Made by a program: the position numbers and the translations under genes. Of a stretch of 64,000 bases of DNA, positions 9,017 through 63,120 are shown piece after piece; position 1 is the first letter of the stretch; every line of letters starts with the position of its first letter. Below the pieces are notes generated by a model. The model saw nothing but the letters and a program-made list of their open reading frames with translations, was not told the DNA's origin and searched no databases. The stretch is taken from NCBI GenBank assembly GCA_050273025.1, contig CP158635.1, positions 18,972,001 through 19,036,000 of the forward strand. The letters are read 5' to 3'. Origin of the DNA: Cenococcum geophilum. Lineage: Eukaryota.

Positions 9017-11529
9017 TATATAATACTAGATATTTTACTAATAACTATAATAGTCTAATATATCCCTTCTATAAGTTCTCCTAAATAAACTCTTTAAGTA
9101 CTCTTAACTCCTTTTAAGTAAGCTTATAGGTTAGGAAAAACCTTAGACTTATTCTTAGTTTTAACTCTATTTTATAGTTCTATACTATATACTTTAATAA
9201 CCTTTTACTTTTTAGGCTCTATAGTTTTTTGCCATACTTATAGTATCTCTTTAGTATATAACTTAAGCCTTACTTAATATCTTTATATATCGCTTTAACT
9301 TAGTACTATACTAACTTAGTTTATTATTATATTTTACAGCGTTAAGTATCTTTAATATTAACCTAACCTATAACCTAATTAATCTTTAGATTATATTTCT
9401 ATAACTAAGGTATACCTAATACTGCCTTATCTCGTTCTAATGGTAGGATATTAAAAAACATCTTAATTTATCTTCCTTTAATAGTTATCTAAATAGGTCC
9501 TATTTTAAGATTAATAATACCTCCTTTATAGGCTATTAGATCTCCTAAAATTATAACTAATAGGTAAGGTTACTCTTTTTATCTATAAGGCAATCCCATT
9601 CTCTTAACTGCTATTAGTAAGATATGGTTTCTTATTACTCCACTATCTATTAGCGCTTTAAACTGTTAATCTTACTAAGTAACTTATAAATTTAGGTGTT
9701 ATTCTTAAATTCTTTTAAGGGTTTAAGGCTTTACTACTAGCTCCCTTTAGTTTTATAGGCCTCTACTTTCCTAACTATTAGCTACTTAATCCTATTATAT
9801 TTAGCTCGCTCTTTAGCTAATATCTAGTTTGCTTTTTATCTTTAATATACTATAAATACATATTCTCTAGGTATTCCCACTACTATTATTTATCTAGGTA
9901 TTCTTTTATAAGAAATCTTTCTAGTTAAAGTATTAAGTCTTTTAACTCCTAAACTTTTACTAAATACGATTCGTGTATATACTTAGTATTTTTATACTAT
10001 TACTTATCTAGCGCCTAATATATCCTTATAAAGTATTTCCATTTTTTTTCTTTTAGATTTTTGCGTATATTATATATATTATCTATATATATAATCAATA
10101 ATAGCGTATAATATACTAGGTGCTTTAGGTTAACTCTTAACTTATCTTTATCCTTAAGTTTAAATCTTTATTATATTAATCTAAATATTATAACTTTATT
10201 TACAGGTGTAACGAGGCCTTATAGGAAATACTACGGCAGACTTATTAACGGGCTAGGTATATAGGTAAATAAGAAGTCAATAATGTAATAATAACTAGTG
10301 GAGTGGTTGCCTAATAGATTAACTCTAATTATATTCTAAGATTTATTATAAAGAAAAGAAACTATCTATAAAGACCGTATGTCCTTAAATATATAACTCC
10401 TCCCTATAGTAAAGAGTTTAGTACATTAGTACGTTAGTACGTTAGTATATCGCGTTCCCACGTTTTTATATTCCTATATTCTGAACTTATAACGTAACTA
10501 GCTATATAACTTAGCTACCTTTTATCCTATAGCTTAATTAGTTCTAGCGCCTTCTATACTATTTTAACTAACCCGTTTATATCTATTTTTAGTAGTTATA
10601 CTACTGCTGATATAAGGTCTGTAATACTATCCCCCTCCTCTTTATCTTTATCTTTAAAGATATCTCCTATCTCTAAGTTGTCTATTAGAGGTATAGCATT
10701 TCTATCTTTAATTTGGTGACCTTTATTATTCCTAATACCTCCTATTAGATCTTTTATGTTTAATTATTATAACTGGCTAGTGACGTTTATTTTATAGCTT
10801 AGTAAAGTTATACTATCCTATTCTTATTATGCGGAAAAGAAGTTAATATATATTGCGATTGTAGCTCTATTTAGTTACTAACCTTCTTTTTATACTAAGT
10901 GTATATAAGCAAATATACGATCGTTTTATAATGTTTAATCTATCTCTAACGCTAAATATACGTGTCTTATTATTCTTTATAACCGTCTAGTTCCTTATCT
11001 AATCTCCTTTAGGGTTGCGCGTATTAATAGCGGCCGAAAAACTAGAGAGTAAGCTAGCTAAGGCCCTTACTAAGGTTTAGCGTTATTCTAATAAGGCGTC
11101 TTAGGCTCTAAAAGCTTAACTAGATGCTTATACTCGCTTAAGCTATTTAGCGAAGGTATATAAAAAGGTGCGTTTAAAAGAGCTATTATGCCTAAGCTTA
11201 ACCCACTTGACCATACAAACTACTAAAAAGGTAGCAGTAGTGTCTCGCAACTGGACGGGCTGCCGGTTGGAATGCCTTATAAGCTCTCCAGCCTATACCG
11301 CAGGTATAGGTAGCGCATCGCATAATAAGAGCTTTGCTTAGTAGAGTAAGGTCTATCTAAACTTAAGGCTAATAAGGCTAAAAAGGATTTCTATTAAGAA
11401 GAGGCGGAAATAGCTTATACGCTAGTAGTGGATCCTTTAGATAATCTGGCTTGTCTATTGCCTTTAGCTAATTCCTTTATCTTTAGCTCCTTTTTAATAT
11501 TACCTAACCCGTTTTTTTAATACTCCTAT

Positions 11530-26635: not shown

Positions 26636-28552
26636 GTCTTAAATCTTACTTATCTCGTCTTAAGAGTCTTATACCTTTAGGAAACTTCGTCCTAAGCTTA
26701 TTTATATATTACTAAACTAAGCTATTACTCTGCTCTATTAGTTATTATCCATTATAGGTCCTTAAGCCTATCTTATCCCTTCTTAAGAATCTTAAGCGTC
26801 TTATATCCCTTCTTAAGAATCTTAAGCGTCTTATATCTCTTCTTAAAAATCTTAAGCCTTTAGCCTTTTGCCTTTATTAAGTGCTAAAGTAGTTTACTAT
26901 CCTACTTCTCTTATATCTCGTAAAGTAATAGACATTATATCTAGTAGGGTCTTAACCCCTACTAATATTCTCTATTCTATAGTGGAATTATCTTTTACCT
27001 CTTTTATAATATCTCTAAGGTCTATATACTCCTAGTAAGCTACTTTTATTACCTTATTATTATAGAATGTTTTGCCTATATTAAATTTATTGTCCTTAAT
27101 ATCCGATCTACAAACTAGTTTATTAGTTCCTCTAAACTTTAATAATTTTAGCTCCTATAGCTAATAGCTTATACTATACTTAGCGTCCTTATAAATTTAG
27201 TATATATTATTATAATAAAACGTAAAACTCTAGATTAAATATTCTTTTATTCCTTATAGTATACTATTATCCCTCTATATATATATATCTTCTACTAGTC
27301 TTATTCCTTTTACTATATAGTAACTCTACCTACTTCTATAGTCTTTAATATAATAACTTTATTTTCTACAATTTATATAAGCTCCTTCTTTAAACTATTT
27401 TTTTTATTATAGAGTCCGCCTAAATATCTTCTACTACTAAGATCCCTAGTTCGGCCTCTACTCCTTAGACCTTTAATTACTTAATCCTTATCCTCTAGGT
27501 TTCTATAGTTATTTATTTTATTTCTAGGTTTCTTTAATACTACTTAGGTCTATTAGCTCTGCGCTATACTATAGTTTTTAATTTTAACTTTACTAATATA
27601 TACCTTGCGCCTTATATAATTATAAAACTCTATTTTAACCCTTTTTAATCTACTCTCTTTAGTAGATCCTATTATTAATCTTAATTACTTAATTAATTAA
27701 ATTCCTAAGAGTATCCGTATCTTCTATTAGGATAATTACATCCTAGACTTTTACTTTAAGTCCTTACTTATACTATACTATAAGCGCTTTATTATTCCAT
27801 TTAACCTATATTACTAATATTTAGAACTATATTATATACTTAATTACTAAAGTTCTCTATACTAGGTTTTAAAGTTTTTATTCCGCTATAGTAGTTACCT
27901 TTAAGTCTCTAAATATCTGCATTAAGTATTCTATAAACCCACTCTAACTTAAGAATATATATTATACCTCCTAGTTAGTAATTATTATACTATACTCTTA
28001 TACCTCTATAAGGTAAGGCTTAAACTACTTAAGTACTTTCCCTGTTAAGAATAATCCTATATAAGTAACTTAATCTATAGGCGTTCCTAGTTTAACTCCC
28101 TCCTATATAACCTTAAAGTATATTAATATAAGGAATCCCTTAAGTTTTAACTTCTCCCCTAAGAATCGCTTAATTAAGGGTAACTTAACCTTAGCTGCTC
28201 CGATTCTATTAATCTTTTCTTTAAATATCCTATTATTATCTATTAATTAATTAACCATTTCCTATAGCTGTCTAACGGTAACTAGCTAAGAGTTAGTATT
28301 TATTATACTAGTGTTATTACCTAATCCTAATATAGTTACTGCCATTAACGCTATTATAGCTACTACTTTTAGTAGTATATTATTTAACTTTATTAATACT
28401 ATAACCTTAGTAGTAAATATATAATAAAGCCTTATAGTAGAAACTACGGTAAACTTATTAATAGGCTAGATATATAGGTAAATAAGAAGTTAATAACGTA
28501 ATAATAACTAGTAGAGTAGTTGCCTAATAGATTAACTCTAATTATATTCTAA

Positions 28553-28638
28553 GCCCGCGAAGCCCTACTGCACGCGTCCACGTCGCCGCGGGTGGAAACA
28601 TCATCTGGAATCCTATTCCTATTGATGGCCAAGTGCAG
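28553..28638 (+). ncRNA. Canonical HDV-like self-cleaving ribozyme at the LINE 5' end
   Basis: P1 GCCCGCG(28553-59)/CGCGGGU(28587-93), P2 CUGCAC(28568-73)/GUGCAG(28633-38), P3 GCG/CGC, L3 UCCACGU, P1.1 CC/GG(28594-95), P4 CAUCA..GGAAU/AUUCC..UGAUG, J4/2 GCCAA (putative catalytic C at 28629). Confidence 0.93.
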
Positions 28639-31600
28639 AGGCGATGGTAGAGAGCCGTCACAGCGCGTGCAGCGCTGTCGTTCGACTCTATAGTAATGGG
28701 CCCGCGACGCGTACAAAGCATCGCCCTCAACAACACCAGGAGCCTTACTGCCTCCGCTTAGAGCTCTTGTTCTACCATCTAGGGAGGCCTAGCAAGGGAA
28801 ACTAGGATACGAAAACCGCCCGATATACGACTACCTGGCTTATAGCCAGGCCCGAAACTGGCCTTATCCAGCCAGTCAACGTAGACGCGTCCTAGGCGTA
28901 TAACAGGACACCCTTAGGCTTGCACTAGCTCTAAGATCGCGAAGTATACGCGATAAGGGCGTAGGGATCCTCCTTTTATAAGAACTTGTTAAGGTTAACG
29001 CGTTACAGATACTTCGTACGAAACTTGTTAAGGCCCCAAGGCCACCGCGAAGAACTTGTTAAGGCCCTACCTAGAGAACTTATTAAGGCCCTTCTATAAG
29101 GGCCTATCTGGTATCTAGTACACTCAGGTGACTTAGAAGAGGGTCTTAATAGGCGTGGTGCGCGCGACCTAGTACAGCAACAGCGACGCGACGGCAACGC
29201 GACGGCGACGCGACGGCGACCAGACGGCTCAACGAGGTGGAAACACGGGCAAAGCTCTAGGCAGCGGAAACACAGGCCAGCTTCAACGGCCCCATGGCGT
29301 TCGACTCACAGTCGACTCACAGGCGACTTACTGGAGGGTCTTAATAGGCGTAGTGCACGCAACCTAATGCGCATATGCATAAGGCGACTCATAGGAGGGT
29401 CTTAATAGGCGTGGTGCTCGCAACCTGATGCATATATATAGGGGAGGCTATAGGGGAAACACAGGCCAGTCGGACGAGGACTTGACAGTTAGAGACATAG
29501 GCCAGCTTATAAAAGGGGGGGACACAAGCTTAGTTAGTAGGAGAGGGGAGAGCAGGTCGTCTGGTATGGGACCTAATATCTCTACAGCCCCTCTCCTATA
29601 AGACACGGTCGGCCTATTATAAGGAGACTTATAGGTAACGCGAAATAGGAACTGGCAGCAGTATAGGGTATTGCGCCCCTATATTACTACTAGCCTCCCA
29701 TAGGGCATAGTGCGTAATAGCTACTACTAGCTCTAAGGACCTTACCCCTTAGCTGGGCCCTAACCCTTAGTATACCTAGTAGGCAGATAGGATTACGTCC
29801 TAGCTGGAGAAACTACTACGTGGCTTAAGAGAACGGATATGCGTATTAGTATACCAATAAACAGAACCGTTCGCCCCTAGGGCGGTACGCCGGTAAGGTA
29901 TACTTAAGGAGTAAACAAGAGTTACTTAGGTAGGGGAGGCTTTTAGTCTAGGCCTTAACTATAGAAGGTACCCAAGGCTTCCATATTGCAGGATGCAGCC
30001 ACGACGCCCTCGTAGGATTACGCTAGTAGGCACGTAAGAAGGGAGTTGCGACCCCTAAAAGCGGCAGCTTATGCCTATACCGGCGGAAATAATAAAGAAA
30101 GGCGTAAAACTAGAGGCTATAGAAGGCTCCTAAGCCGTGCGAAAGTATACTAACTTTAGGAGGAGATTCTTATATAGACCGCTAGGGGGTGGTCTAGTAC
30201 TTAGGATAACCCCATTATAAAATACCTAAAAGAATAGTAAAAACCCCTATTAATTAGTAGTGGCAGCCAACTGCTTATAGAAAGCCCCCTAGGCCTTTAG
30301 GCCTAGGTAACTAGGATAAATACTAGAAAACTAGGGCAGAGGTCTGGATAAGTAGGCATATTAAACTCTACTATATAACTACCTACTAAATATATAGGGG
30401 ACTAGTACAAATTATTAATATATATAACCCTAGGGTCGAAGGGGTCCCATAAATAGAGAATATTATATTAGTAATAAGCTTACTAAAAACCGAAGGTATA
30501 GAGTCTATCCTATTAGAAGATATAAACCTCTACTACCCGCGGTGGGGGGGTATTCATATTGCTGTAGATTAACAGTTAGAGTGCCTACTAAGAGCTATAG
30601 ATATCTGGGGCCTTAAGCTAGCCACCCCCCTAGGAGTAATTATATGGTAACGAGGCACCGCCAGAAGTATAATTAACCTTATATTTATAAACGAAGGCCT
30701 ATATTAAAGACTTAAAAGGTATAACCCTAAAGAAGAATAGGCACTTACCCTAGACTATATCCCTATTTAGATACAGCTAGACCTAGATACTAAAGCGTAA
30801 CTAAATAGAAAAAGATACGCAATAAGAAAGCTTAAGATAAATAGTTTCCTTAATACAGTTAAATAACAACTCTAAAACCTAGAAGAAATCTACCTAATAC
30901 TAAACAAGCGAGGCTTATTAGCCACCCCTAAGGAAATCAACCGAAGACTAGAAAGGATCTAGGCAGCGATTAAAAATAGGCTAGAAGAGTACCGCCCGAT
31001 CTTAAAACTGGGCCCCTACGCGCGACACGCATGGTCTATATAATACGTAGTTTTAGTTACCAGCTAATGACGAGTAAGAAGAAAATATATAAGCAGCCAT
31101 AACCCTAAAGACGAGAGATGATATAAAGACATAAGAAACTAGCTAAAGAATACCCTAAAAAAAGAAGTAAGGAATAACTGGAGACGGTTTATAAACGAGC
31201 ATACTTCTAACCCGAGCCTCCCCTATAATAAGGGCCTTTAGGCTATAGCGAAATGGGTAAAGAAAAAGGTAGGGCGCCTAGTAGAAGACCTATACTTACC
31301 ACCCCTATAAAGAGTAGGAGAATTATAGGCTATAAATAACAATAATAAGAAGGCAAAGATCCTTATAGAAAAGTTCTTTCCCTAACCGGCTTTAGTAGAC
31401 CTTAGTAATATTACGGGTGAAACACTAGTAACTCGCCTATAGGTCGACAGCGATATAATAATAGAGGAAATGGCTAGAACCATTAGCCGCCTTTTAAATA
31501 ATATAGTACTAGAACTAGATAGGATTCTAAATAAGGCCCTAAAAACCTGTGGGCCACTTATAGCATCTTAGCTTATAGATATAGCTAGAGTATGCTTTGC

Positions 31601-33813
31601 TATAGGCTACTACCCGCAACTTAGAAGATCTATAACAACGGTTATCCTATAAAAAGAAGGTAAAGTAGATTACTTAATCCTAGGAAGCTACCGCCCTATT
31701 GCCTTAGAAAACACCCTTAGTAAGATCTTAGAAAGGGTAATAGCAGAATGCATAGTAGATACGGCAGAGGAATATACCCTACTACTATAAAGCTAAATAG
31801 GGGCAAGAAAGAACCGCTTAATATTATTAGCACTTACGCTACTCGCTACCACCATTAAATCTATATGGGCGATACGAAAGGACTTTATAGTATTAATACT
31901 TAGCCTAGATATTAGTGGTGCCTATAATAATATACCCCACAAGCGTCTCCTATATATCCTTAGGGTAAAGGGCTTTCTAGAATGGATTATATAATTTATC
32001 TAAGGGTTTATAGGCTAGAAAGAAATATTACTGGTTTTTAGCGGATACTAGAGCCCCCCTATTGCAGTTACAACAGGAATACTATAAGGATTACCCCTCT
32101 TACCTATACTCTTCCTTTTCTTTATAAGTAACCTACTTAACTCCTTTAAGGAAGGGGCGACCTAGGGGATAGGCTTTGTTAATAATATAAACCTAATTAT
32201 ATACGGGCTAACAGCCATAGAGAATTGTAGAATACTAGAGAAAGCCTATAATACTTATATAGAATAGGTAAGACGTTATAGAGTCCAATTCTTACTAGAG
32301 AAATACTAGCTAATCTATTTTATAAGAAAACGTAACTAATCTATAGATTTTTAGTATATAATTCGTATCTAAGGCTTTAGGGGTTAACTAGTTTAGGGCC
32401 TAAGGGTACTAGGAGTATAGGTAGATAGTAAGCTCTAGTGGAGCGTATATACGGCGTAAGCGGCCTATAAAGGCCAAGCATAGTTTATTGCTTTATTTAG
32501 GATTGTTAATTTTATATAAGGTTTATGCTTTTAGAGGTTACGCCTACTATATACAGTAGTTGTCTAGCTAACCATAATATATAGATCCAGTATTTGGGCC
32601 ATTAGAGAAACTAAGAAGGGCCCCCTAAAATTACTCCTTAAATTACTTTAAAAGGTCTAAACAGCCTACCTCTAAAGTATTATAGGCGGATATAAGCAAA
32701 CGGCTACAGCACTGCTTAAGAAGGAATCCAATATTCCCCCCCTATAGTTATATATTAAAGCCGCTGTAATATAAAGGATATAAAATAAATGTAACTCTAA
32801 TATTATAAAGTATATTAAGATACGCTTAAGTAAACTATAGAGGGACCTTAGGGTGCCCTATAGGAGAACAAACCAATAACCCTAAAGTAGGGAAGAGATA
32901 TTAAAGAAATAGGTAAAGAAAGCAGAAGAAGAATGGTGTCGCTTTAGGGCCTAGGCCTATATAGAGGAGGAAGGGAAACGCGTAAGAGGTTAGCAAAGAT
33001 AACAGTAAGATAGAGAAAGGAGCTAAAGTAGAACACGTAAGAATGCTGGGAAACTATCTACCGTAATGCAATACTAGTTGGACTAACGCTAGAGAGGCGA
33101 ATGGAAGTTAAAGGTATAAAGGCTAACTTAGGTAAGACGAACCTAAGCTATAGTATGGTTAACGCTATGGGGGGTAAATACCTAAGGGCTCCGAGAAGGC
33201 CTAATAAAGGTAGAAAATATAATAGTAATACTCTTAAGAACAGGAATAATAGGACTAAAAGATTGGCTTTACTAGGTAGGTGTCCTAGTAGGTAGCCTGA
33301 GATATAAATGTAGCTAGCTAAGATAGACACTAAAACACGTAATATTGCTATGCCCCCTATACACTAATTATAAAATAATGCTCTTAGTAGCTGGCATAGA
33401 GAACTATAATATACTGCTCTTAATATAAAAAGGCCTTAAGGCGGTTACCTAGTGGCTTATTAGTTAAAATATGCTAAATTAGTTCTAGGTTGTAAGGGAA
33501 ATGGTAATAAAAGGTAAGGGGGCGAGCAGCAGGTGCCCCCTAGTAACTCTATAGTAGTAGAGTAAAAGTTTATAATACTAGCGCGTCCGTAGGCTTGTTA
33601 CGGCAGCAGTGGTTCCTAAGGAGGTTAAATAGTAAGGTAGTAGAGCACCATAGGCAACTTATAGACGCTAAGTAGGCGAGTCCCAAAAGGCGGGGAGATG
33701 GATTACGGGGTTTTCTCATTTTTCTTAAATAGAGTTTTCTCCCTATATGTAAATAAGGAGTAGTCCGTGTAGGCCTAATAGGGATCTAAATCGGACGTTA
33801 AGCAATGAATTAT
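28553..33813 (+). mobile_element. 5'-complete Tad1-like LINE (RIP-degenerate) inserted in the Gypsy 5' LTR
   Basis: TSD TAATTATATT(C/T)TAA at 28539-28552 and 33814-33827. Decayed APE endonuclease (~30400-30780) and RT motifs (YRPIALENTL ~31690, LDISGAY ~31905, QGSPLSPILF ~32085, GFVDD ~32172). Confidence 0.92.
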
Positions 33814-36800
33814 TAATTATATTTTAAGATTTACTATAAAAAAGAGAAACTATTTATAGAGACCGTGTGTCCTTAAATATATAACTCCTCCCTATAGTAA
33901 AGGGTTTAGTATATTAGTACATTAGTATATTAATACGTCGCGTTCCTATATTCTTACATTCCTACGTTTTAAACTTATAACGTAACTAGCTATATAACTT
34001 AGCTACCCCTTATCCTATAGCTTAATCAGTTCTAGCGCCTCCTGTACTATCTTAACTAACCCACTTATATCCATTCTTAGTAGTCGCACTACTGCTAATA
34101 TAAGGTCCGTAACAAATAGAGGCAGTAGCGTTAATAGTATTAGTAGGGCTGCCCTCTATAGGCGTATCGTCATCGGCTATTAAAAGCAGTAAGTAGATAT
34201 TATAAATTAGTTAATATATTAATAAGTCTCTAACTATTTATTCTATATAGGCCTTTTTAATATCCTACGCGGATTATATAACTATTATCCTTACCGCCCT
34301 TTCTATTTGGTAATAGCTTTTTTTTAGTAAATCGCCTACCAAACAAATGCCTCCTACTAGGTGGGAACACCTCCTGCTTTAGTATTTAGAAGAGGCGCTT
34401 ATACCTTATAGATTACGCCTAAGTAGGCCGTAAAATATTAACCTAGTTACGCCTACCTAGTAGAGCCGACCTAGCTAAAAAAAGGTATTAAATATAGCCT
34501 TATACAGAGCATTAAGAACCTTATAGAAGGCGCTAATAGGGGCTAGTTATAGCGTCTTATTACCTACTAACAGGCTTACTGTAGACGTCGAGTGCTGAAA
34601 CTCCTACGCTACGAACCTTCTAGTTAGCCCACCCCTGTATCTAGCCATAAATATTATTAGCTTCTGCTCCGCTAATATACCTTCCTACGTATATAATTTG
34701 TAGTCGTTTATAAGCCAATTAAGGAGCAATTTGAACATTCGTTAATTAAGGCGTGTTAACGTTTTAAGCGCCTGCGGAGGACCGTATAATAGCTCTATCG
34801 TTCTTGCCTTACCGCGAAGAGGATTAACAAGTTGCTAGCGCCTGCCATTTAATGCTAGAAGGTTCTTTACATACTTAATAAGTACATAAAGCAGCAATAT
34901 CATCGCTAGAACGCCTATTAATACTATAGCTAATATATAAGGCTTTATTGACCTAAGGTACAAGTAGTCTATATTTTTAGGTCCTGGATTTCAAACCTCC
35001 GCCAAGCCAGCTTCTGATTGGTTAGAAAGCCAGCTTCTCATTAGTTAGAGAAAAAGTTACGCGCGGTAAGTTGTGGTAGAATCCACGTAACGAATATTAA
35101 AATATTATAAACATCAAAATATCGCCTTCCTTTTTGTTGACACCTCTATTAATACTACTATATATATTATAAATATGGTAGATCCTACTATAATTGAGCA
35201 GCAAGTGCCATATCTATAAGCCCCGCCTTAACTTTATTAAAGACGGCCCTTTAAAAAAGATTTTAAAGCTATGCCAGTTATATCGGTCAAAGGCGCGTCT
35301 TCCCTATATATTACTTCTACTTCTACTTACTTTTCTAGGCCTCTAAGTATAGTTTAAGTAAGCGAAGAGCTCTTATAGAGTTAGGTTCTACTACTAAGAA
35401 TCGTCCTGTAAGGCGCCAGCGAACTACTCTACCTAAAAATAATACCGAGAACGCCTTCCTGCCTTACGGCCAGAACAGTTAAGATACCCCTAAAATAGCT
35501 TAATAACGGAAGACAATTAGGGTAATATAACGGGAGCACCGCATTTTTAATTAGTGGGGTAAAGCTTACTTGCCTACTCCTCCGCTATATACCACAGATA
35601 AAGCTCCGTATAATAGAAGAGGCACTCTAAATAGCCTAAATACGTCCTTGCTAGAACTAGCTCCTATACCTACTCTACTACTAATACCTACCCTACCTCT
35701 AATACCTACCCTACTACTAATACCACCTTTCTTACGGCAAGCTCCCTTATAGTAAGCTCCCTCACAGTAAGCTCTGACTACGGCTACACTACTATCTGTT
35801 TCGGCTGTTAATTGGGAGCAAATTAAGAAGTTTAGGAGTATACTATAGGCTAAATATATAGAGACGTGTAGTCGTTATAAGGAGCGGTAGTTTTAAATAG
35901 GTATAGCTACGGAGGGTAATAATATGGGTGTATATAAAGCCTATATTAAGGACGCCAATAGCCTTAAATATTTAACCCTTTTTTCCCTATTTAGTAAAAG
36001 TAATGGGCTTAATCTAGGGCCTGTTCCTAGCTTCTTACCTATACTTACCACGGTAGAGGAGCTTCTAATTGCGCGCGTATACGTTTATCTACAAGTTATG
36101 CGTATATATAGCTAATAACATCGCTATACTGGCTATATCTACTACTTTGGCCAGAATACACTAAAGACTTAGAGATAGCTACTACGGCTACCTACTAAAC
36201 TTAATATACTGGTTGTAAGGCCTATAGTAGTAAAGGGTAGCAAATACCTAAGTTGGCGGTTTACTAAGCGGTATACTGTAAGGCGCTCTACTATAGTATA
36301 GTAGCTTTACTTTTTAAAGGTTAATTATCCTAATTATTGCGACGTTAAAATATATAGCACCCGGCTTACTAGCTTACCCAAAAATGGCTCTATATTAGAT
36401 TAACTACCTTATATTAACGAGTTAGAGTCTAATTCTAGTGGCCCGACGGCTTACCCTACTGCTTTTATATAACGTCCTCCTACTATTAATCCTTTGCCTA
36501 CTAAGCTTGGTAGTAATATACTAGACGGCGAATTTAATAATAATATACTAGATACTTTGGTTCCTAATCTAGTACCTAACCTTAGTAAATTAGAGCTTTT
36601 AGGTCGCGAGGTTTAACACTAATAAGACCTATAAGCGGGCTTAGAGGTTCCTACTGTATAATAGACACCTCTCTCTAAGTAATTAGCTAGTTTTATTATG
36701 CGCGGCGCCTTTCCTACCCTGTTTCCTTATGGCAAAGCCAATTTTAATATGCTGCGAAGCCGTACGGTTACCCTAGCTACGTACGCTAAGCATATGCTTA

Positions 36801-57893: not shown

Positions 57894-60800
57894 TAAAGGA
57901 GCCGCTACAGCAGCAGAACACGCCCACCACTTACCCAATAAAGAAATACCCACTCCCAATCAAATCTACGGCATAATATGCCCTAGAGCGAATGTACGCA
58001 TCACAGCTGGAAAGCCTGTGCGACCCAGGAGGGTCGCAGCAGACTCAAAGGTGGGTCGACACAGAAAAACGCGACACCACAATAAACCCACCAGGGGGCG
58101 ACCCAACCACAACAGCCAAAGGACAACGACCAGAAATGGCAAAAACTTATAGATATCCTAAAAGACATTGAGGAAGATCTAGGGAAGGGAGAAGATAAAT
58201 ACCCACGCATAGGGGTAGCGCGTGCGGCTTAATAGGCAGGACAAATCGTATAGGAGCTATGGACAAGGCACAATAGGAACCAGAACGCCATAGAGGATAG
58301 GCTTAGCCGCATTAAGGATGCTATAAAATCATAGGGTATACCAACAACGCACACAACAAAGCCCTTATAGGCCAACGTTGCCACCAGCGCCTAACCGGCG
58401 CCTCTCCAGCGCCTCCCTAGTATAGCACCGGTAAGGTCCACACTTAGAATCCAAATACTAGAGGCAATAGGAGCAAAGCCAAAACAGCTCCTTACATTAA
58501 TTAGAGCACATATACTAAAGGCAGTGGCAGTAAAGGTCCTGTATAGCGGCAACATAGAGGTTATACTCCCTAACTAATAGGCAAAGGACTAGGCCATTAC
58601 CTAGGGAGACACCCCTAAGTACAAGATCCTCCGCTAGGACTTCCCGGTGGAAGTAATTAGAGTACCCCTTAATATATAAGTAGAAAGCGGGTAAGGCGCT
58701 ATAAACTTATAACTTATCTAAAAGATTACAGAGGCCACTAGAAGACTAGTCCTAGGTATTATAATATCTAGAGTCGCATAGCGCTATAGAGTGCGCACTA
58801 TATATATAGGGGTATTACCAAGGTTCTAAAAAGTTAAAACACGTAGTACCCTAATAATTAACCTACCAACTTAGGAGATGTAGGCGGCAGTAGTATGCAA
58901 AGGAATAGTTATAGATAGCCTTTAGTACGAAGCCCGGCTATACTATAGCGCAGTCCAAATCCGCTAATACTTTAGATGCTAATAGTAGGGCTACACCTAG
59001 AGCGCATGCGGGAGATAGGAGAGGTATAGATGGTGCGCCAATACACACGAGATAAAGGACTGCCCTAGGAACAAGGGAGTTAGATACGTAAACTACGGTA
59101 AAGAACATAAAGTATAGCAGAAGACGGCATATAAGACCTTCTAGGTGTACTTAGAATCTACTAAGATAAGACAAACCCAACTATACTAGGTTATAGCCAC
59201 GCTACGGGGAAACGCATATAAGGAGAAGGAGCTAAGCATAATAGGCAACGGCGGCTAAATAGTCGCATAAAGAAAGAGATCTAGGGTACCCACCCCAATA
59301 GGGGCACCCTCTGCCCAACCAGCGGCAAAGCAGAGCGTGGGACGCCCGTAAGGCAGCACCAACGCCGCCAGAAACCCATCCTAGCAAAGAATCCTAATCG
59401 CAACACCCTTAACCAAGACACCCTAGAGGCGAACGGAAGACACCTATAAGCCACTAAACTAACCAACACTATAAATAGACTAATAATAGTATAATATAAC
59501 TGCGGATACTTAAACTATAGAGCAACTCGTCCCCTATTTAATAGCCTAAACCCAGAAAAGTATTAGATAATCGCCCTATAGAAACTAGTATATAATAAGT
59601 AGATACGCAAAATATACTAACTAAAAGGATACTACCTCCTATATAAACCAAACCCGGCTACTTATATATGCTTCCTAGTTAGCTAATATATTAATATATA
59701 GGCATAGAGCTACCACAATATCAGCTATAATATTAATAAATTATAACTAGCTACTAATAGGGGCTAAATTAGTATAATTAACATGTATAACCTAAGTAAC
59801 AATAAGCCCCAAATCGCTATATAGGAACTACTTCAATAGGCTATTAACACAATAGAAGGCGAGGTAATAGTCCTAGGGGACTTTAACACACACTATATAT
59901 CATAGGGCGGGCAGCAGGCTACAACTAAAGCATAGGTAGCCCACCTACTAAACGAGCTAGAAACGCGGGGCCTTACCCTAACCACCCTAACCGGCGAACC
60001 TACCTGGAAAAGAGGAACCTAAGAAAGCACAATTAACCTTACATTTATATAAGAATCACTCGTAAACCGACTAAAGTTCTGCGGACTAGAAGACATATAG
60101 GTAATTACCGCAGACTATATACCTATATAGATAGCGCTTAACGTTACCGCACTAGTATAACAAACCTACTAGAGATACGCCACTAAGAAACTTAACTAGG
60201 AAAAATATACCCAGGAAATCACTAATAGGCTAGCAGTAATACCTTAAGCATCGCTAGAAGATATCTAGAGGACTATAGGCAACTGCCTAGAAGAATACTA
60301 CCTAAAAGCCAAACCTAGCAAACACGCCCACCGCGAATAGTTGCTAGAGGTAGCCCAGCTACTTACAGGCGCAAGGAGGGTAAGGCGACAGTATACTATA
60401 ATAGGCGAAGCCCACTACTAATAAAGCTTTAAGGCCCTAAAAAATAGGCTTAAGAAGATAATACAGAAAGAGGGCAGAAATAACTGGCGCCGATTTTTAG
60501 AAGAAATTACTATAAACTCTACCAAACTATATAATAAAGGACTTTGGCGCATATTAAAGTGGAGTAGGCGAGCCGCTAAAGAGACGCTAGGGGACCCCTA
60601 CCTACCCACACTCCGCTAGTTAGGCTAGGACTAGTATACGAATAATAATAAGGAAAAAATTAAAATACTAGTAGAAAGGTTCTTCCTAGGAGCGGGTCAA
60701 GCAAACCTTAAGGATATTAGTAGCCAACTACCCCCCCCCCTCCTATAGAAATAAGCTATATAATATTAGCAAAAGAAATAAAGGACGCTATATAAAAGCT

Positions 60801-63120
60801 CTTTACCGGTAAAGCGCTAGGGCTAGATAAGATCCTAAATAAGGTAATTAAAGCTGCGGCAGAAGTGATAGCAATACTACTTACTAAGGCCGCAACCGCC
60901 TGTCTCTAGAGAGGCGAACTACCCAAATGCTTTAAAGTAATAACCACAGTTATCTTATAAAAGGCGAAGAAAAAAGACTACTCCCTCCTAGGAAGCTACC
61001 GCCCAATTACCCTAAAAAACACCCTAGGAAAGCTTTTAGAAAAGATAGTTACGGAACGTATATAAGAAGCGGCAGAAGCATAGGAGCTACTACCATAGAT
61101 ATAAATAGGCGTAAGAAAGAAATAATTAACCCTTTTAGCCCTCTCCCTAATTACCTCTAGCGTCTAAGCGGCATAGTAAGCGCACCTAGGATGCACCGTA
61201 TCTATACTAAGCCTAGACCTAAGCGGAGCCTTTAATAACATATTATATAAGAGACTCCTATAAATCCTAAGAAATAAGGGCCTACTAAACTAGATAATTA
61301 AGTTTATCTAAGCCTTCCTAACAGGACGCACTATAAAAATTATAATTAAGGGATACAAAAGCAAGTTAATACCAACACCTATAGGTATTCTATAGGGATC
61401 ACCCCTCTTACTAATCCTATTCCTCTTCTTTATATCCAAACTACTAGAGATATTTAATAATAGCCAGGATATAATAGCCCTAGGATTTATTAATAATATA
61501 AACCTAATCTTATAGGGAAATATAGCAGTAGAAAACTATACTAGGCTAAACCAGGCGCACAACAGGTGTATTATATAGGCAAAATAATATAGTGCCAAAT
61601 TTGCACCAGATAAATACTAGCTTATCCACTTTATAAGGAAAAGAAGGGTAGGTAACGACCTAGCCTTAATAGTAAATATCTAGGGCTGCGAAGCAAAACC
61701 AGAAGCTACCCTTAAGATCCTAGGGGTCTAGGTAGACTCTAAACTAAACTAGAACGAGTATATCACATAGGCGACCCATAGGGGAGCAGCTGCACTCTTG
61801 GCAGCATTATAGATTACTACCTTAATATAGGGTCCCTCTTTTAGACTTACACATCTACTATACATAGCAGTTATAAGGCTAACAATGCTATACGGCTCCT
61901 AGGTATGGGGCCTAGGATTAGGCGGCAAGGTGCTAGCAAAAAGCTCCCTAGCGCTACTAGCTAAGCTTTAAAACTAATGCCTACGTAGAACTACAGGAGC
62001 CTATAAGAGAACACCGCGCGCCGCACTAGAACGCGAAGCGGCTGTTCTACTACTAGATATATACATTAATATAACTGCTATATAGAGAGTAGTTACAGTA
62101 TAAGGCCACCTAGTAGAAGAAAAAATACGCCATACGCTAAAATGTATACGAGGAACGAGACTTATATAAGGAGTAAGGGCCCCTTAAAGGAGAGCCGCGC
62201 CTAAGCATACTAGCTAGGAAGCTCTCTACCTACGAGCGGTAGAGAGAGAAAAGGAAATACGGGAACTACTAGCCTACTAGGCTGAGACCTAGCGCCATAC
62301 CGGTAGAGCGCCATAACGGCGATAGAGGATAGGAGGCTACTAGCATAGATAGAGATCTACCACGCTAATCGTAAGATAGGCAGATCTTAAATAGAAACAA
62401 TAATAGAAGGAGGTAGCGAAAACACAAGATATAGCCACATGGAATACCCCATAGTTAATATTAACTCTCCCCCTATATAAAGGACTAACAAAGGCAGAAT
62501 CTACAGCCGCCTTCCTACTACAGATAGAGGTCCTAGGCCTAAATATATGGCTCATAAGCATCTATATTCTAAATACTATACCTTAATACACATGCGGATG
62601 GCCCGCTTAGTTAGTACGCTATATACTGCTATTCTGCAGTTACCGCTTAGTAAGGGACTAGCTACTCGCTAGCGTAAGCATAAATAATATTACCTAGATA
62701 CTCTTTATAAGTAGGGGCCTATATATAGCAGCAAAATAGCTTATAGGATAAGGAATCCTCTAGTAGTTCTAAACAGCACATAAGATCCAATAGGAGGATA
62801 CTATAGGATATACCCCTTTCCAGCCCCTTAAGGACTGGTTACCCCCCGCCTAGCCACAGGCGGCACACTAGCAAATCGCCAGACCCTCCCTCTACTCCCT
62901 CCCCCTAGATCTTCTAACATACCTAGGAAGTATGGTACGTAAGGCAGACTAAAAGACACAAGGATATACTAGCTAGGCGAAGGCGGAGCGCGTAAGACTA
63001 GCTAAGAGGAAATACCTAGGTTTTTTCCCCCTATGGGGACTTTTTTCCTATATAGATAGGTAGTAGCCTACATAGACCTAAAAAGGGACCGAATTGGGCA
63101 ATAAATAGAACAAATAATAA
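57894..63120 (+). mobile_element. Tad1-like LINE, second family (RIP-degenerate), probably slightly 5'-truncated
   Basis: TSD TAATATTTAAAAA (57881-57893, 63121-63133). ORF1 relic with three CCHC-like knuckles (~58965-59135). ORF2 relic (~59470-62840) with APE, RT and C-terminal CGW...H..LFC. (TAA)n tail. Confidence 0.9.

What the first reader, a model, noticed from the sequence alone, without database searches (positions are those of the whole stretch)
28553..28638. Textbook HDV-like ribozyme at the precise 5' end of a fungal Tad1-like LINE
Seen: all five helices, the G1-U wobble, L3 UCCACGU and J4/2 GCCAA are present, and the fold begins immediately after the TSD (G28553 is also assignable to the target site). 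It is intact although the LINE ORFs are destroyed by RIP. Inference: this LINE family matures its RNA by self-cleavage, and this copy could still cut any read-through transcript.
Basis: partly seen in the sequence, partly recalled or inferred. Interest (0 to 1): 0.8.

Follow-up and report, generated by a model that had tools for sequence, protein, structure and literature searches.

The report
Self-cutting RNA heading a fungal retroelement
A complete hepatitis-delta-type self-cutting RNA fold sits at the very first base of a fungal retroelement, but it belongs to a 1.8-kb passenger module fused to a beheaded LINE, not to the LINE family itself.

Summary
Window 28553-28638 (+) has all parts of an HDV-like double pseudoknot: P1 with a G-U wobble, P1.1, P2, P3, P4 and C28629 in J4/2. 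My descriptor hit only this place in the window and nothing in 12 Mb of shuffles. An empty-site paralog fixes a 15-bp target duplication, so the fold starts at the insert's first base. Two further copies in metagenome contigs start at the same G behind unrelated flanks.

The 5.26-kb insert is a chimera. Module A (28553-30391) carries the ribozyme and has no detectable endonuclease or RT. It is fused to a 5'-truncated APE-RT LINE, B'. All 21 full-length B copies examined start with a different sequence and have no ribozyme. Module A ends at one place in four junctions with four different partners. Two composites have their own target duplications.

Most likely the ribozyme cuts module A's RNA free at G1, and LINE reverse transcriptases copy that RNA in trans. 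Rfam gives no hit, cleavage is untested and covariation is modest. This is a new member of a known kind; I found no fungal report.

The parts
28539..28553 (.). 5' copy of the target-site duplication (TAATTATATTCTAAG). Its last G is also ribozyme position 1.
28553..28638 (+). HDV-like ribozyme fold, 86 nt. The predicted cut is 5' of G28553.
28553..28559 (+). P1 5' strand. It pairs with 28587-28593. G28553-U28593 is a wobble.
28568..28573 (+). P2 5' strand. It pairs with 28633-28638 and forms the pseudoknot.
   Evidence: pair 18-84 changes on both sides in L005
28574..28586 (+). P3 (28574-28576 with 28584-28586) closing L3 UCCACGU. C28578 and C28579 pair with G28595 and G28594 to form P1.1.
   Evidence: The same P3/L3 letters occur in an unrelated HDV-like fold in L081.
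28599..28627 (+). P4 hairpin: outer stem 28599-28603/28623-28627, inner stem 28607-28611/28615-28619.
   Evidence: -9.6 kcal/mol, z = -3.0. The L018 variant also folds (z = -4.3). The variants are seen in RNA and DNA runs.
28628..28632 (+). J4/2 GCCAA. C28629 stands in the place of the catalytic cytosine.
   Evidence: The role is inferred from the fold.
28553..30391 (+). Module A: 1.84-kb unit headed by the ribozyme. No APE or RT was detected. It is partly RIP-mutated and holds three 45-50-nt repeats at 29125-29431.
30386..30392 (+). Junction zone between module A and B', with a few shared letters.
30392..33813 (+). B': a 5'-truncated, RIP-ruined APE-RT LINE. ORF2 lies in the frame of 28554. 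The element ends in a short ATT-type tail.
31659..32303 (+). Reverse transcriptase domain (Pfam RVT_1, E = 1.3e-11, stops read as X).
33814..33828 (.). 3' copy of the target-site duplication (TAATTATATTTTAAG).
10326..10340 (.). Uninterrupted target sequence in a paralogous copy of the flanking repeat (the empty site).

Best explanation
Window 28553-28638 encodes a genuine HDV-like self-cleaving ribozyme. It sets the 5' end (G1, 5'-OH) of the RNA of a 1.84-kb retro-mobile unit, module A (28553-30391).

Module A has no detectable endonuclease or reverse transcriptase. It is most likely transcribed by read-through, or from a promoter of its own. The ribozyme then cuts it free of upstream sequence, and LINE enzymes copy it in trans.

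The window copy is a single-event chimera. Target-primed reverse transcription started on a B-family LINE RNA. It stopped inside ORF2, jumped to the 3' end of a module-A RNA, and ran to G1. That would explain why the insert begins exactly at the cleavage site.

Shown: the fold, its rarity by chance, the insert boundaries, the shared 5' end of three copies, the chimeric build, and the fixed 3' end of module A.

Inferred: cleavage itself, trans-mobilisation, and template switching.
For: 1. The fold is complete at the stated coordinates. The descriptor hits 1 place in the window and 0 in 7.7 Mb plus 4.5 Mb of shuffles.

2. The 15-bp TSD and the empty-site paralog place ribozyme position 1 at the insert's first base.

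3. 3 of 3 copies that reach the 5' end (window, L005, L018) begin at the same G behind unrelated flanks. In L005 the G lies outside the TSD.

4. On these 3 copies, 95.2% of 84 pair cells are standard pairs, against 35-52% when partners are slid. 4 pairs change on both sides, including pseudoknot pair 18-84. 5 of 500 shuffles reach this. Under a null of random RIP hits, L005 has 3 doubly hit pairs against 0.89 expected, P = 0.03.

5. P4 differs between the window and L018 and folds in both. The L018-type letters occur in RNA and DNA runs. One RNA-library contig keeps the core up to 28598 and then continues with 30 letters that I paired by hand into a 13-bp hairpin.

6. The insert is a chimera.
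- The ORF2 profile aligns to the window only from node 96 of 1117, and not at all to module A.
- 35 loci share only element positions from about 1822-1849 onward.
- 21 of 21 B copies that reach their 5' end have a different 5' end.
- Module A stops at one place in 4 junctions with 4 different continuations.
- The L005 composite, A plus a 5'-truncated A, has its own 9-bp TSD.

7. Contigs of three RNA libraries cover module A. They carry G or C where the window has A or T, so less-mutated copies exist.

8. The identical P3/L3 letters head an unrelated, complete HDV-like fold in a viral contig. Its P1 and P2 complementarity was not part of the search pattern.
Against: - Rfam gives no HDV-type match even at E up to 10. 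The L081 fold is missed too, so this test is weak.
- The nested MFE is not exceptional: z = -1.07, and 29 of 200 shuffles fold as well.
- Only three genomic copies carry the 5' end. Nearly all their differences are RIP-type transitions (450 of 508 across module A), so the covariation could be luck. For L018 alone P = 0.12.
- The descriptor was written after seeing the sequence and has no positive control. It misses the L081 fold because of my J4/2 rule.
- RNA libraries may contain DNA, and contigs cannot show RNA ends.
- Two Lindgomyces gene models that translate an A-like sequence share a few residues about 20 codons upstream of the ribozyme-like part. If real, relatives may extend upstream of the fold.
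- No module A standing alone with its own TSD was seen.
Confidence: 0.7

Rival explanations
1. The 5.26-kb insert is one full-length LINE of a single family. The ribozyme is that family's native 5' end, so the RT-encoding family processes its own RNA by self-cleavage.
For: One TSD encloses the whole insert. Module A and ORF2 lie in the same reading frame across the junction. The total length, 5261 bp, is close to that of the full-length B contigs, 5320-5352 bp.
Against: The ORF2 profile starts at node 96, so the N-terminal part of the endonuclease is missing. 21 of 21 B copies that reach their 5' end start with another sequence, and neither the descriptor nor the covariance model finds a ribozyme there. 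No similarity was found between module A and the B 5' region (tblastx). Module A ends at the same place where it is joined to other partners.
Confidence: 0.08
2. Module A is not an element of its own. It is the 5' part (5' UTR plus first ORF) of an autonomous LINE that my sample missed. The A units seen here would be copies of a 3'-shortened RNA of that LINE, for example one ended at an internal termination or processing site. The ribozyme would still process the 5' end, but of an autonomous LINE.
For: Module A holds long, once-open stretches in one frame, and two uncharacterized Lindgomyces proteins of 333 and 379 aa align to it. My loci were chosen by likeness to family B, so another family could have been missed. 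The last codons of module A look faintly like the endonuclease stretch at the junction. That is my reading, and the profile does not support it.
Against: Four of four module-A 3' ends stop within about 15 bases of each other, and none continues into an ORF2. One is a 5'-truncated A' that ends there, directly before a TSD. That fits a complete template ending at that place. A profile search finds no endonuclease or RT in module A.
Confidence: 0.2
3. The fold does not cleave in vivo. The constant 5' end reflects transcription starting at an internal promoter. The structure would be a chance or relic feature, or serve only as a structured leader.
For: No cleavage data exist, and there is no Rfam match. 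Internal promoters that start at +1 are known in LINEs. In L1Tc the same 77 nt act as both promoter and ribozyme (PMC3383444, passages read).
Against: A complete double pseudoknot with every core feature, starting exactly at +1, was found 0 times in 12 Mb of shuffles. Pairing is kept across copies, including pseudoknot helix P2. P4 varies in sequence and keeps its stem. The core letters recur in an independent HDV-like fold.
Confidence: 0.1

Closest known systems
L1Tc / NARTc (and ingi / RIME) of trypanosomes: HDV-like ribozyme L1TcRz in the first 77 nt
   Same: The ribozyme occupies the first bases of the element and cuts 5' of +1, so it travels with every new copy. It heads both the autonomous LINE and a non-autonomous partner that the LINE mobilises. 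It keeps copies transcribed from tandems apart. (PMC3185411, PMC3383444, PMC4035085; passages read.)
   Different: The host here is a fungus. The ribozyme-headed unit is 1.84 kb, not 263 nt. It shares neither its 5' end nor its 3' end with the LINE it is fused to: B starts GGAGCTC... and ends in an (AAT)n or (ATT)n tail. No promoter function was tested.
R2 retrotransposon 5' ribozyme (R2Rz) and the HDV-like ribozymes of RTE and Baggins elements
   Same: An HDV-like double pseudoknot at the 5' junction releases the element RNA from a co-transcript (PMC6765202 and PMC3774820; passages and abstract seen).
   Different: R2 is site-specific in rDNA and encodes its own RT behind the ribozyme. Here insertion is into dispersed repeats, and the ribozyme-bearing module has no RT.
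Chimeric retrocopies made by RT template switching (U6-L1 chimeras in mammals; the MINE element of Magnaporthe). Recalled, not looked up here.
   Same: A full-length upstream RNA with a fixed 3' end is fused to variably 5'-truncated LINE copies inside one TSD. That is the pattern of the window, L005 and L061 composites.
   Different: The upstream partner here begins with a ribozyme-defined end and can itself be the primary template: the A' copy in L005 ends directly at the TSD.
HDV / CPEB3-type ribozyme core
   Same: The order of helices, a 7-bp P1 opening with G-U, a 3-bp P3, a 7-nt L3 whose two C's form P1.1, and a C followed by N-A-A before the P2 3' strand.
   Different: No sequence-level family match in Rfam. 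J1/2 is 8 nt, and P4 is a two-part hairpin that varies between copies.

Membership tests
HDV-like self-cleaving ribozymes | Nested double pseudoknot with helices in the order P1-P2-P3-P3'-P1'-P1.1-P4-P2' | tested here: met
   Direct reading. Descriptor hit. 28 pairs, 95.2% of cells paired across three copies.
HDV-like self-cleaving ribozymes | P1 starts at the cleavage site with G1 in a G-U wobble | tested here: met
   G28553-U28593, kept in 3 of 3 copies.
HDV-like self-cleaving ribozymes | Cytosine in J4/2 in the place of the catalytic C, and L3 supplying two C's for P1.1 | tested here: met
   C28629 in GCCAA. C28578 and C28579 pair with G28595 and G28594. The J4/2 letters are invariant in 3 of 3 copies.
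HDV-like self-cleaving ribozymes | Match to a curated covariance model (Rfam HDV, CPEB3 and drz families) | tested here: not met
   0 matches at gathering score. No HDV-type match at E up to 10. A second clear HDV-like fold (L081) is missed as well, so the models are narrow.
HDV-like self-cleaving ribozymes | Compensatory changes in helices among relatives | tested here: inconclusive
   4 pairs changed on both sides, and 5 of 500 shuffles reach this. Only 3 copies were available and all changes are RIP-type transitions. Against a random-RIP null, P = 0.03 and P = 0.12.
HDV-like self-cleaving ribozymes | Self-cleavage 5' of G1, leaving a 5'-OH | not testable with these tools
   Needs in vitro transcription or RNA libraries specific for 5'-OH ends.
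Ribozyme-headed non-LTR retroelements (R2, L1Tc/NARTc type) | Ribozyme +1 coincides with the 5' end of independent insertions | tested here: met
   3 of 3 copies, with flanks unrelated upstream of G1. TSDs.
Ribozyme-headed non-LTR retroelements (R2, L1Tc/NARTc type) | The unit behind the ribozyme encodes the RT (autonomous element) | tested here: not met
   The profile of 18 ORF2 proteins finds nothing in module A. Pfam finds nothing there. I therefore file it as a non-autonomous unit, not as a LINE.
   RVT_1 in the window. The relatives carry Exo_endo_phos and RVT_1. The window copy lacks about the first 95 profile nodes.
   No reference Tad1 sequence was available from a tool. The named relatives are only 'reverse transcriptase' or 'hypothetical protein' of Podosphaera, Lasallia and Stemphylium.
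   No RNase H hit in the window read-through. None in the precomputed Pfam lists of the 44 closest proteins. It first appears in hits of 26-30% identity.

The most novel reading that the evidence does not exclude
Module A is a fungal, ribozyme-capped, RT-less retroelement. It spreads by being picked up at its fixed 3' end by the reverse transcriptases of unrelated LINE families (B, C), often through template jumps that leave A-LINE and A-A chimeras. The same ribozyme core is also shuffled onto other downstream sequences. One RNA-library contig keeps the core and continues with a different P4 and different downstream letters. That would make HDV-like ribozymes a portable 5'-end module in filamentous fungi, where none seems to be described.
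Probability: 0.4. Interest if true: 0.65.

Novelty: new member of a known kind. Interest (0 to 1): 0.5.

Why it matters
HDV-like ribozymes are known to define the 5' ends of non-LTR retrotransposons in animals and trypanosomes. Five searches of the held literature found no description in a fungal retroelement. The only trace was a remark on unpublished folds in Penicillium (PMC3185411).

If cleavage is confirmed, the mechanism extends to filamentous fungi. It would also explain how an element without an evident promoter or RT keeps a precise 5' end. And it would give a clean natural example of ribozyme-ended RNA captured into LINE chimeras.

For annotation, it is a warning. A TSD-flanked 'full-length LINE' can be a fusion of two unrelated units, and a feature at its 5' end need not belong to the RT-encoding family.

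Tried and rejected
- Rfam at gathering score and at E up to 10 gave nothing useful.
- No whole genome is held for the window. The metagenome records behind my loci cannot be searched as records. A genome-wide census of module A was therefore impossible.
- The strict descriptor on the 80 loci found only one unrelated A+T-rich hit, L061 6516-6581. It missed the two RIP-hit copies.
- Covariance model R1 on 646,874 bases found the three known copies. It also gave one weak match, L059 1842-1903 (E = 0.33), which on reading has a poor P1 and lies in ordinary-looking sequence. I dropped it.
- An exact 25-mer scan of viral contigs gave 0 matches.
- A de-RIP comparison of the few module-A copies left 26-30 stops per frame, so the ORF of module A could not be defined.
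- Pfam found nothing in P0102, P0103 or the B 5' region. tblastn of P0102 and P0103 hit only module-A copies.
- I tried to read the ribozyme of the Lindgomyces copies back from the protein letters of P0102 and P0103. Third codon positions hide the informative partners, so it gives no verdict.
- Run data. The flank has no cover in X16 and little in X19, while module A is covered. These are contig depths and holes, which cannot show RNA starts or levels, so I draw nothing from them. No 'before' loose end at 28553 is among the 24 rows shown out of 480, which says nothing either way. Runs with small shares that I did not lay (X17, X18, X20) are not used.
- Ruminski 2011, Webb 2009 and Webb and Luptak 2011 are not held. 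Any fungal examples in them or in their supplements remain unseen.
- I did not use structure prediction, complex prediction or the protein atlas. They do not bear on an RNA fold.

Full report
**1. The observation**

Reading the window gives the full set of helices of an HDV-like ribozyme between 28553 and 28638 on the + strand.
- P1: 28553-28559 pairs with 28587-28593, 7 bp, opening with the wobble G28553-U28593.
- J1/2: 8 nt.
- P2: 28568-28573 pairs with 28633-28638, 6 bp. This helix makes the pseudoknot.
- P3: 28574-28576 pairs with 28584-28586, closing L3 UCCACGU.
- P1.1: the second and third letters of L3 (C28578, C28579) can pair with G28595 and G28594.
- P4: a two-part hairpin, 28599-28627.
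- J4/2: GCCAA, with C28629 where the catalytic cytosine stands in this class.

The nested MFE fold recovers P1, P3 and P4. Its energy is not unusual: z = -1.07, and 29 of 200 shuffles fold as well. That method cannot see the two pseudoknots.

Rfam gives no match in the whole window at gathering score. At E up to 10 in 28400-28800 it gives two irrelevant weak matches and no HDV-type one.

**2. Chance**

I wrote a descriptor for the class. It asks for:
- a 7-bp P1;
- a 3-bp P3;
- an L3 of 6-8 nt whose letters 2 and 3 pair with the two bases after P1;
- a P2 of 5-8 bp;
- a stem for P4;
- C-N-R-A before the 3' strand of P2.

It is post hoc and has no positive control. It hits one place on both strands of the window, 28553. 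It hits nothing in 60 dinucleotide shuffles of the window on both strands, and nothing in 3000 shuffles of the G+C-rich 1.5 kb behind the fold. In 582,874 bases of related fungal contigs, both strands, it gives one hit at an unrelated A+T-rich place.

**3. Where the fold sits**

A self-comparison of the window shows that 28429-28553 and 33814-34112 are two halves of a repeat that is uninterrupted at 10216-10624. The alignment and the sequences give three things:
- a 15-bp target duplication, TAATTATATTYTAAG, at 28539-28553 and 33814-33828;
- the empty site at 10326-10340;
- an insert of 5261 bp.

**4. The coding part**

With stops read as X, one frame (that of 28554) carries a reverse transcriptase domain at 31659-32303 (Pfam RVT_1, E = 1.3e-11). 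That frame runs through to a C-terminal Cys/His motif without frameshifts, but with 90 stops in 1190 codons.

RIP indices:
- In the flank, (CpA+TpG)/(ApC+GpT) is 0.13-0.21.
- In the first 250 bases of the insert it is 1.12, and TpA/ApT is 1.18.
- Further into the insert the second index is 0.22-0.97.

Against a relative (L004), 367 of 541 differences are C-to-T or G-to-A in the window.

The closest proteins in the large collection are APE-RT proteins. P0001 is 68% identical over the RT region. The named ones come from Podosphaera, Lasallia and Stemphylium. None of the 44 closest carries RNase H.

**5. Relatives, and the surprise**

A profile of 18 such proteins brought in 80 metagenome loci. 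Many come from two samples that also hold the window's flanking repeat, so the organism is the same or a close relative. I call the family found in these loci B. Compared with them, the insert falls into two parts.
- From element position about 1822-1849 to the 3' end it is 82-88% identical to B in 35 loci.
- The first 1839 bases match none of those B copies.
- 21 of 21 B copies that reach their 5' end begin GGAGCTCTTGC... behind diverse flanks.
- Neither the descriptor nor a covariance model of the ribozyme finds anything in those B copies.
- 35 of 35 B 3' ends carry an (AAT)n or (ATT)n tail, and the window copy has a short one.
- The ORF2 profile aligns to the window only from node 96 of 1117, starting at the junction. 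It does not align to the first 1839 bases. In L061 it aligns from node 6.

The RT-encoding part of the window insert (B') is therefore a 5'-truncated copy that lacks the start of its endonuclease. The ribozyme belongs to something else, which I call module A (28553-30391).

**6. Module A as a unit**

Its 5' end occurs twice more, at L005 position 2436 (- strand) and L018 position 11223. In all three copies likeness starts at the same G, and the upstream flanks are unrelated.

Its 3' end is also fixed. Likeness between copies stops within about 15 bases in four junctions, and the continuations all differ:
- B' in the window;
- a 5'-truncated second A, starting at position 1431, in L005;
- plain flank after that second A;
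- a different LINE, C, in L061. C has a complete ORF2 and about 560 bases of its own upstream sequence.

The L005 composite (A plus A') is bounded by its own duplication, ATTAGTATA. There the G lies outside the duplication. A DNA run also shows a joint from near the end of A back into A (table 5c).

A full-length upstream RNA with a fixed 3' end, fused to variably 5'-truncated retro-copies inside one target duplication, is the pattern expected from template switching by the reverse transcriptase. That mechanism is my inference.

Module A shows no endonuclease or RT by profile or Pfam. Its only protein-level relatives are two uncharacterized gene models of Lindgomyces ingoldianus, about 30% identical and with no Pfam domain. 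In my loci these match only module-A copies.

**7. Is the structure conserved?**

With the full pseudoknotted structure on the three copies:
- 95.2% of 84 cells are standard pairs, against 35-52% when partners are slid by 1-3 columns.
- Four pairs change on both sides: one in P2, one in P3 and two in P4.
- 5 of 500 column shuffles reach this.

All changes are G-C to A-U, which is the kind RIP makes. I therefore asked how often random RIP hits would strike both partners of a pair. For L005 the answer is 3 observed against 0.89 expected (P = 0.03). For L018 it is 1 against 0.12 (P = 0.12). That is suggestive, no more.

P4 differs between the window and L018 by non-RIP changes and an indel, and both versions fold well (z = -3.0 and -4.3). 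The L018-type letters at 28614, 28615 and 28621 occur in contigs of RNA and DNA runs. One contig of an RNA library matches up to 28598 and then continues with 30 other letters. By hand these pair into a 13-bp hairpin with a 4-nt loop, where P4 should be (tables 3, 4, 7). This is a single contig, so it is a lead.

**8. RNA libraries**

Contigs of three RNA libraries from three studies lie on module A. They mostly read G or C where the window has A or T (A-to-G 62, T-to-C 47, against C-to-T 20, G-to-A 15 in X15; X16 and X19 are similar). Less-mutated copies therefore exist in those samples. The tool warns that such libraries can hold DNA and that contigs cannot show RNA ends. [quoted passage not shown]

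**9. An independent look at the core**

A degenerate pattern fixed only the P3/L3 letters, three letters after P1 and five letters of J4/2. It found one place in the viral contigs. There, at L081 79-147, the unfixed positions form:
- a 7-bp P1 opening with G-U;
- P1.1;
- a 5-bp P4;
- a 5-bp P2.

This is a complete HDV-like fold with the same P3/L3 core and otherwise unrelated sequence. Rfam misses it too, which shows how little the negative Rfam result weighs.

**10. What is known**

HDV-like ribozymes at the first bases of non-LTR retrotransposons are established for R2, L1Tc/NARTc, ingi/RIME, RTE and Baggins. They release the element RNA from co-transcripts and cut 5' of +1, so that the ribozyme is inherited. 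In trypanosomes they head both the LINE and its non-autonomous partner. (PMC6765202, PMC3185411, PMC3383444, PMC4035085; passages read.)

Five full-text searches found no paper that describes one in a fungal retroelement. PMC3185411 mentions, as unpublished laboratory data, a compatible fold in Penicillium chrysogenum. The 2009 and 2011 survey papers and their supplements could not be read, so earlier fungal hits may exist there.

**11. Verdict**

The fold is very likely a real HDV-like ribozyme that defines the 5' end of a retro-mobile RNA.

The ribozyme heads a 1.84-kb RT-less module. In this window that module was captured, in one insertion event, in front of a beheaded LINE.

It is a new member of a known kind, in a host group where I found none described. 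Cleavage, the RNA ends and a genome-wide census remain to be done.

Noticed in passing
L081 79-147 (+), near the start of a 96.7-kb viral contig: A complete HDV-like fold with the same P3/L3 letters as the window ribozyme and otherwise unrelated sequence: 7-bp P1 opening with G-U, P1.1, 5-bp P4, 5-bp P2. Rfam does not match it. It probably belongs with the phage HDV-like or theta ribozymes that earlier notes of this scan describe.
   Followed up: partly
window 59944-62787 (+): A second RIP-mutated APE-RT LINE, co-linear with B' at about 40-60% amino-acid identity by tblastx. It is related to the LINE in L061. Neither the descriptor nor the covariance model found a ribozyme upstream of it.
   Followed up: partly
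window 35987-36367 (+): Pfam DUF6570 (E = 8.4e-19, stops read as X) about 2 kb behind the insert. From recall, this domain accompanies Helitron-type helicase proteins. It is likely another degraded transposon.
   Followed up: no
window 10216-10624, 28429-28553 and 33814-34112; also L027, L031, L038, L040, L045, L073: The target of the insertion is itself a dispersed, RIP-mutated repeat found in many contigs. It is the most abundant sequence on the stretch in the DNA run.
   Followed up: no
35 loci, e.g. L005, L017, L069: Family B ends in a variable (AAT)n or (ATT)n microsatellite tail instead of poly(A). The two tail types go with two subfamilies of the last bases (GAATAAT... and GAATTATT...).
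   Followed up: no
window 29125-29171, 29320-29370, 29382-29431: Three 45-50-nt repeats inside module A (85-88% alike). DNA-run contigs show many joints that skip or repeat these units (table 5), so their number varies between copies. In one frame they read GD(L/S)EEGLNRRGARDL, which also occurs in the Lindgomyces gene model P0102.
   Followed up: no
L018 11950 onward: The module-A copy in L018 breaks off after 735 bases. Sequence of ordinary composition, not RIP-like, follows. It may be a later insertion.
   Followed up: no
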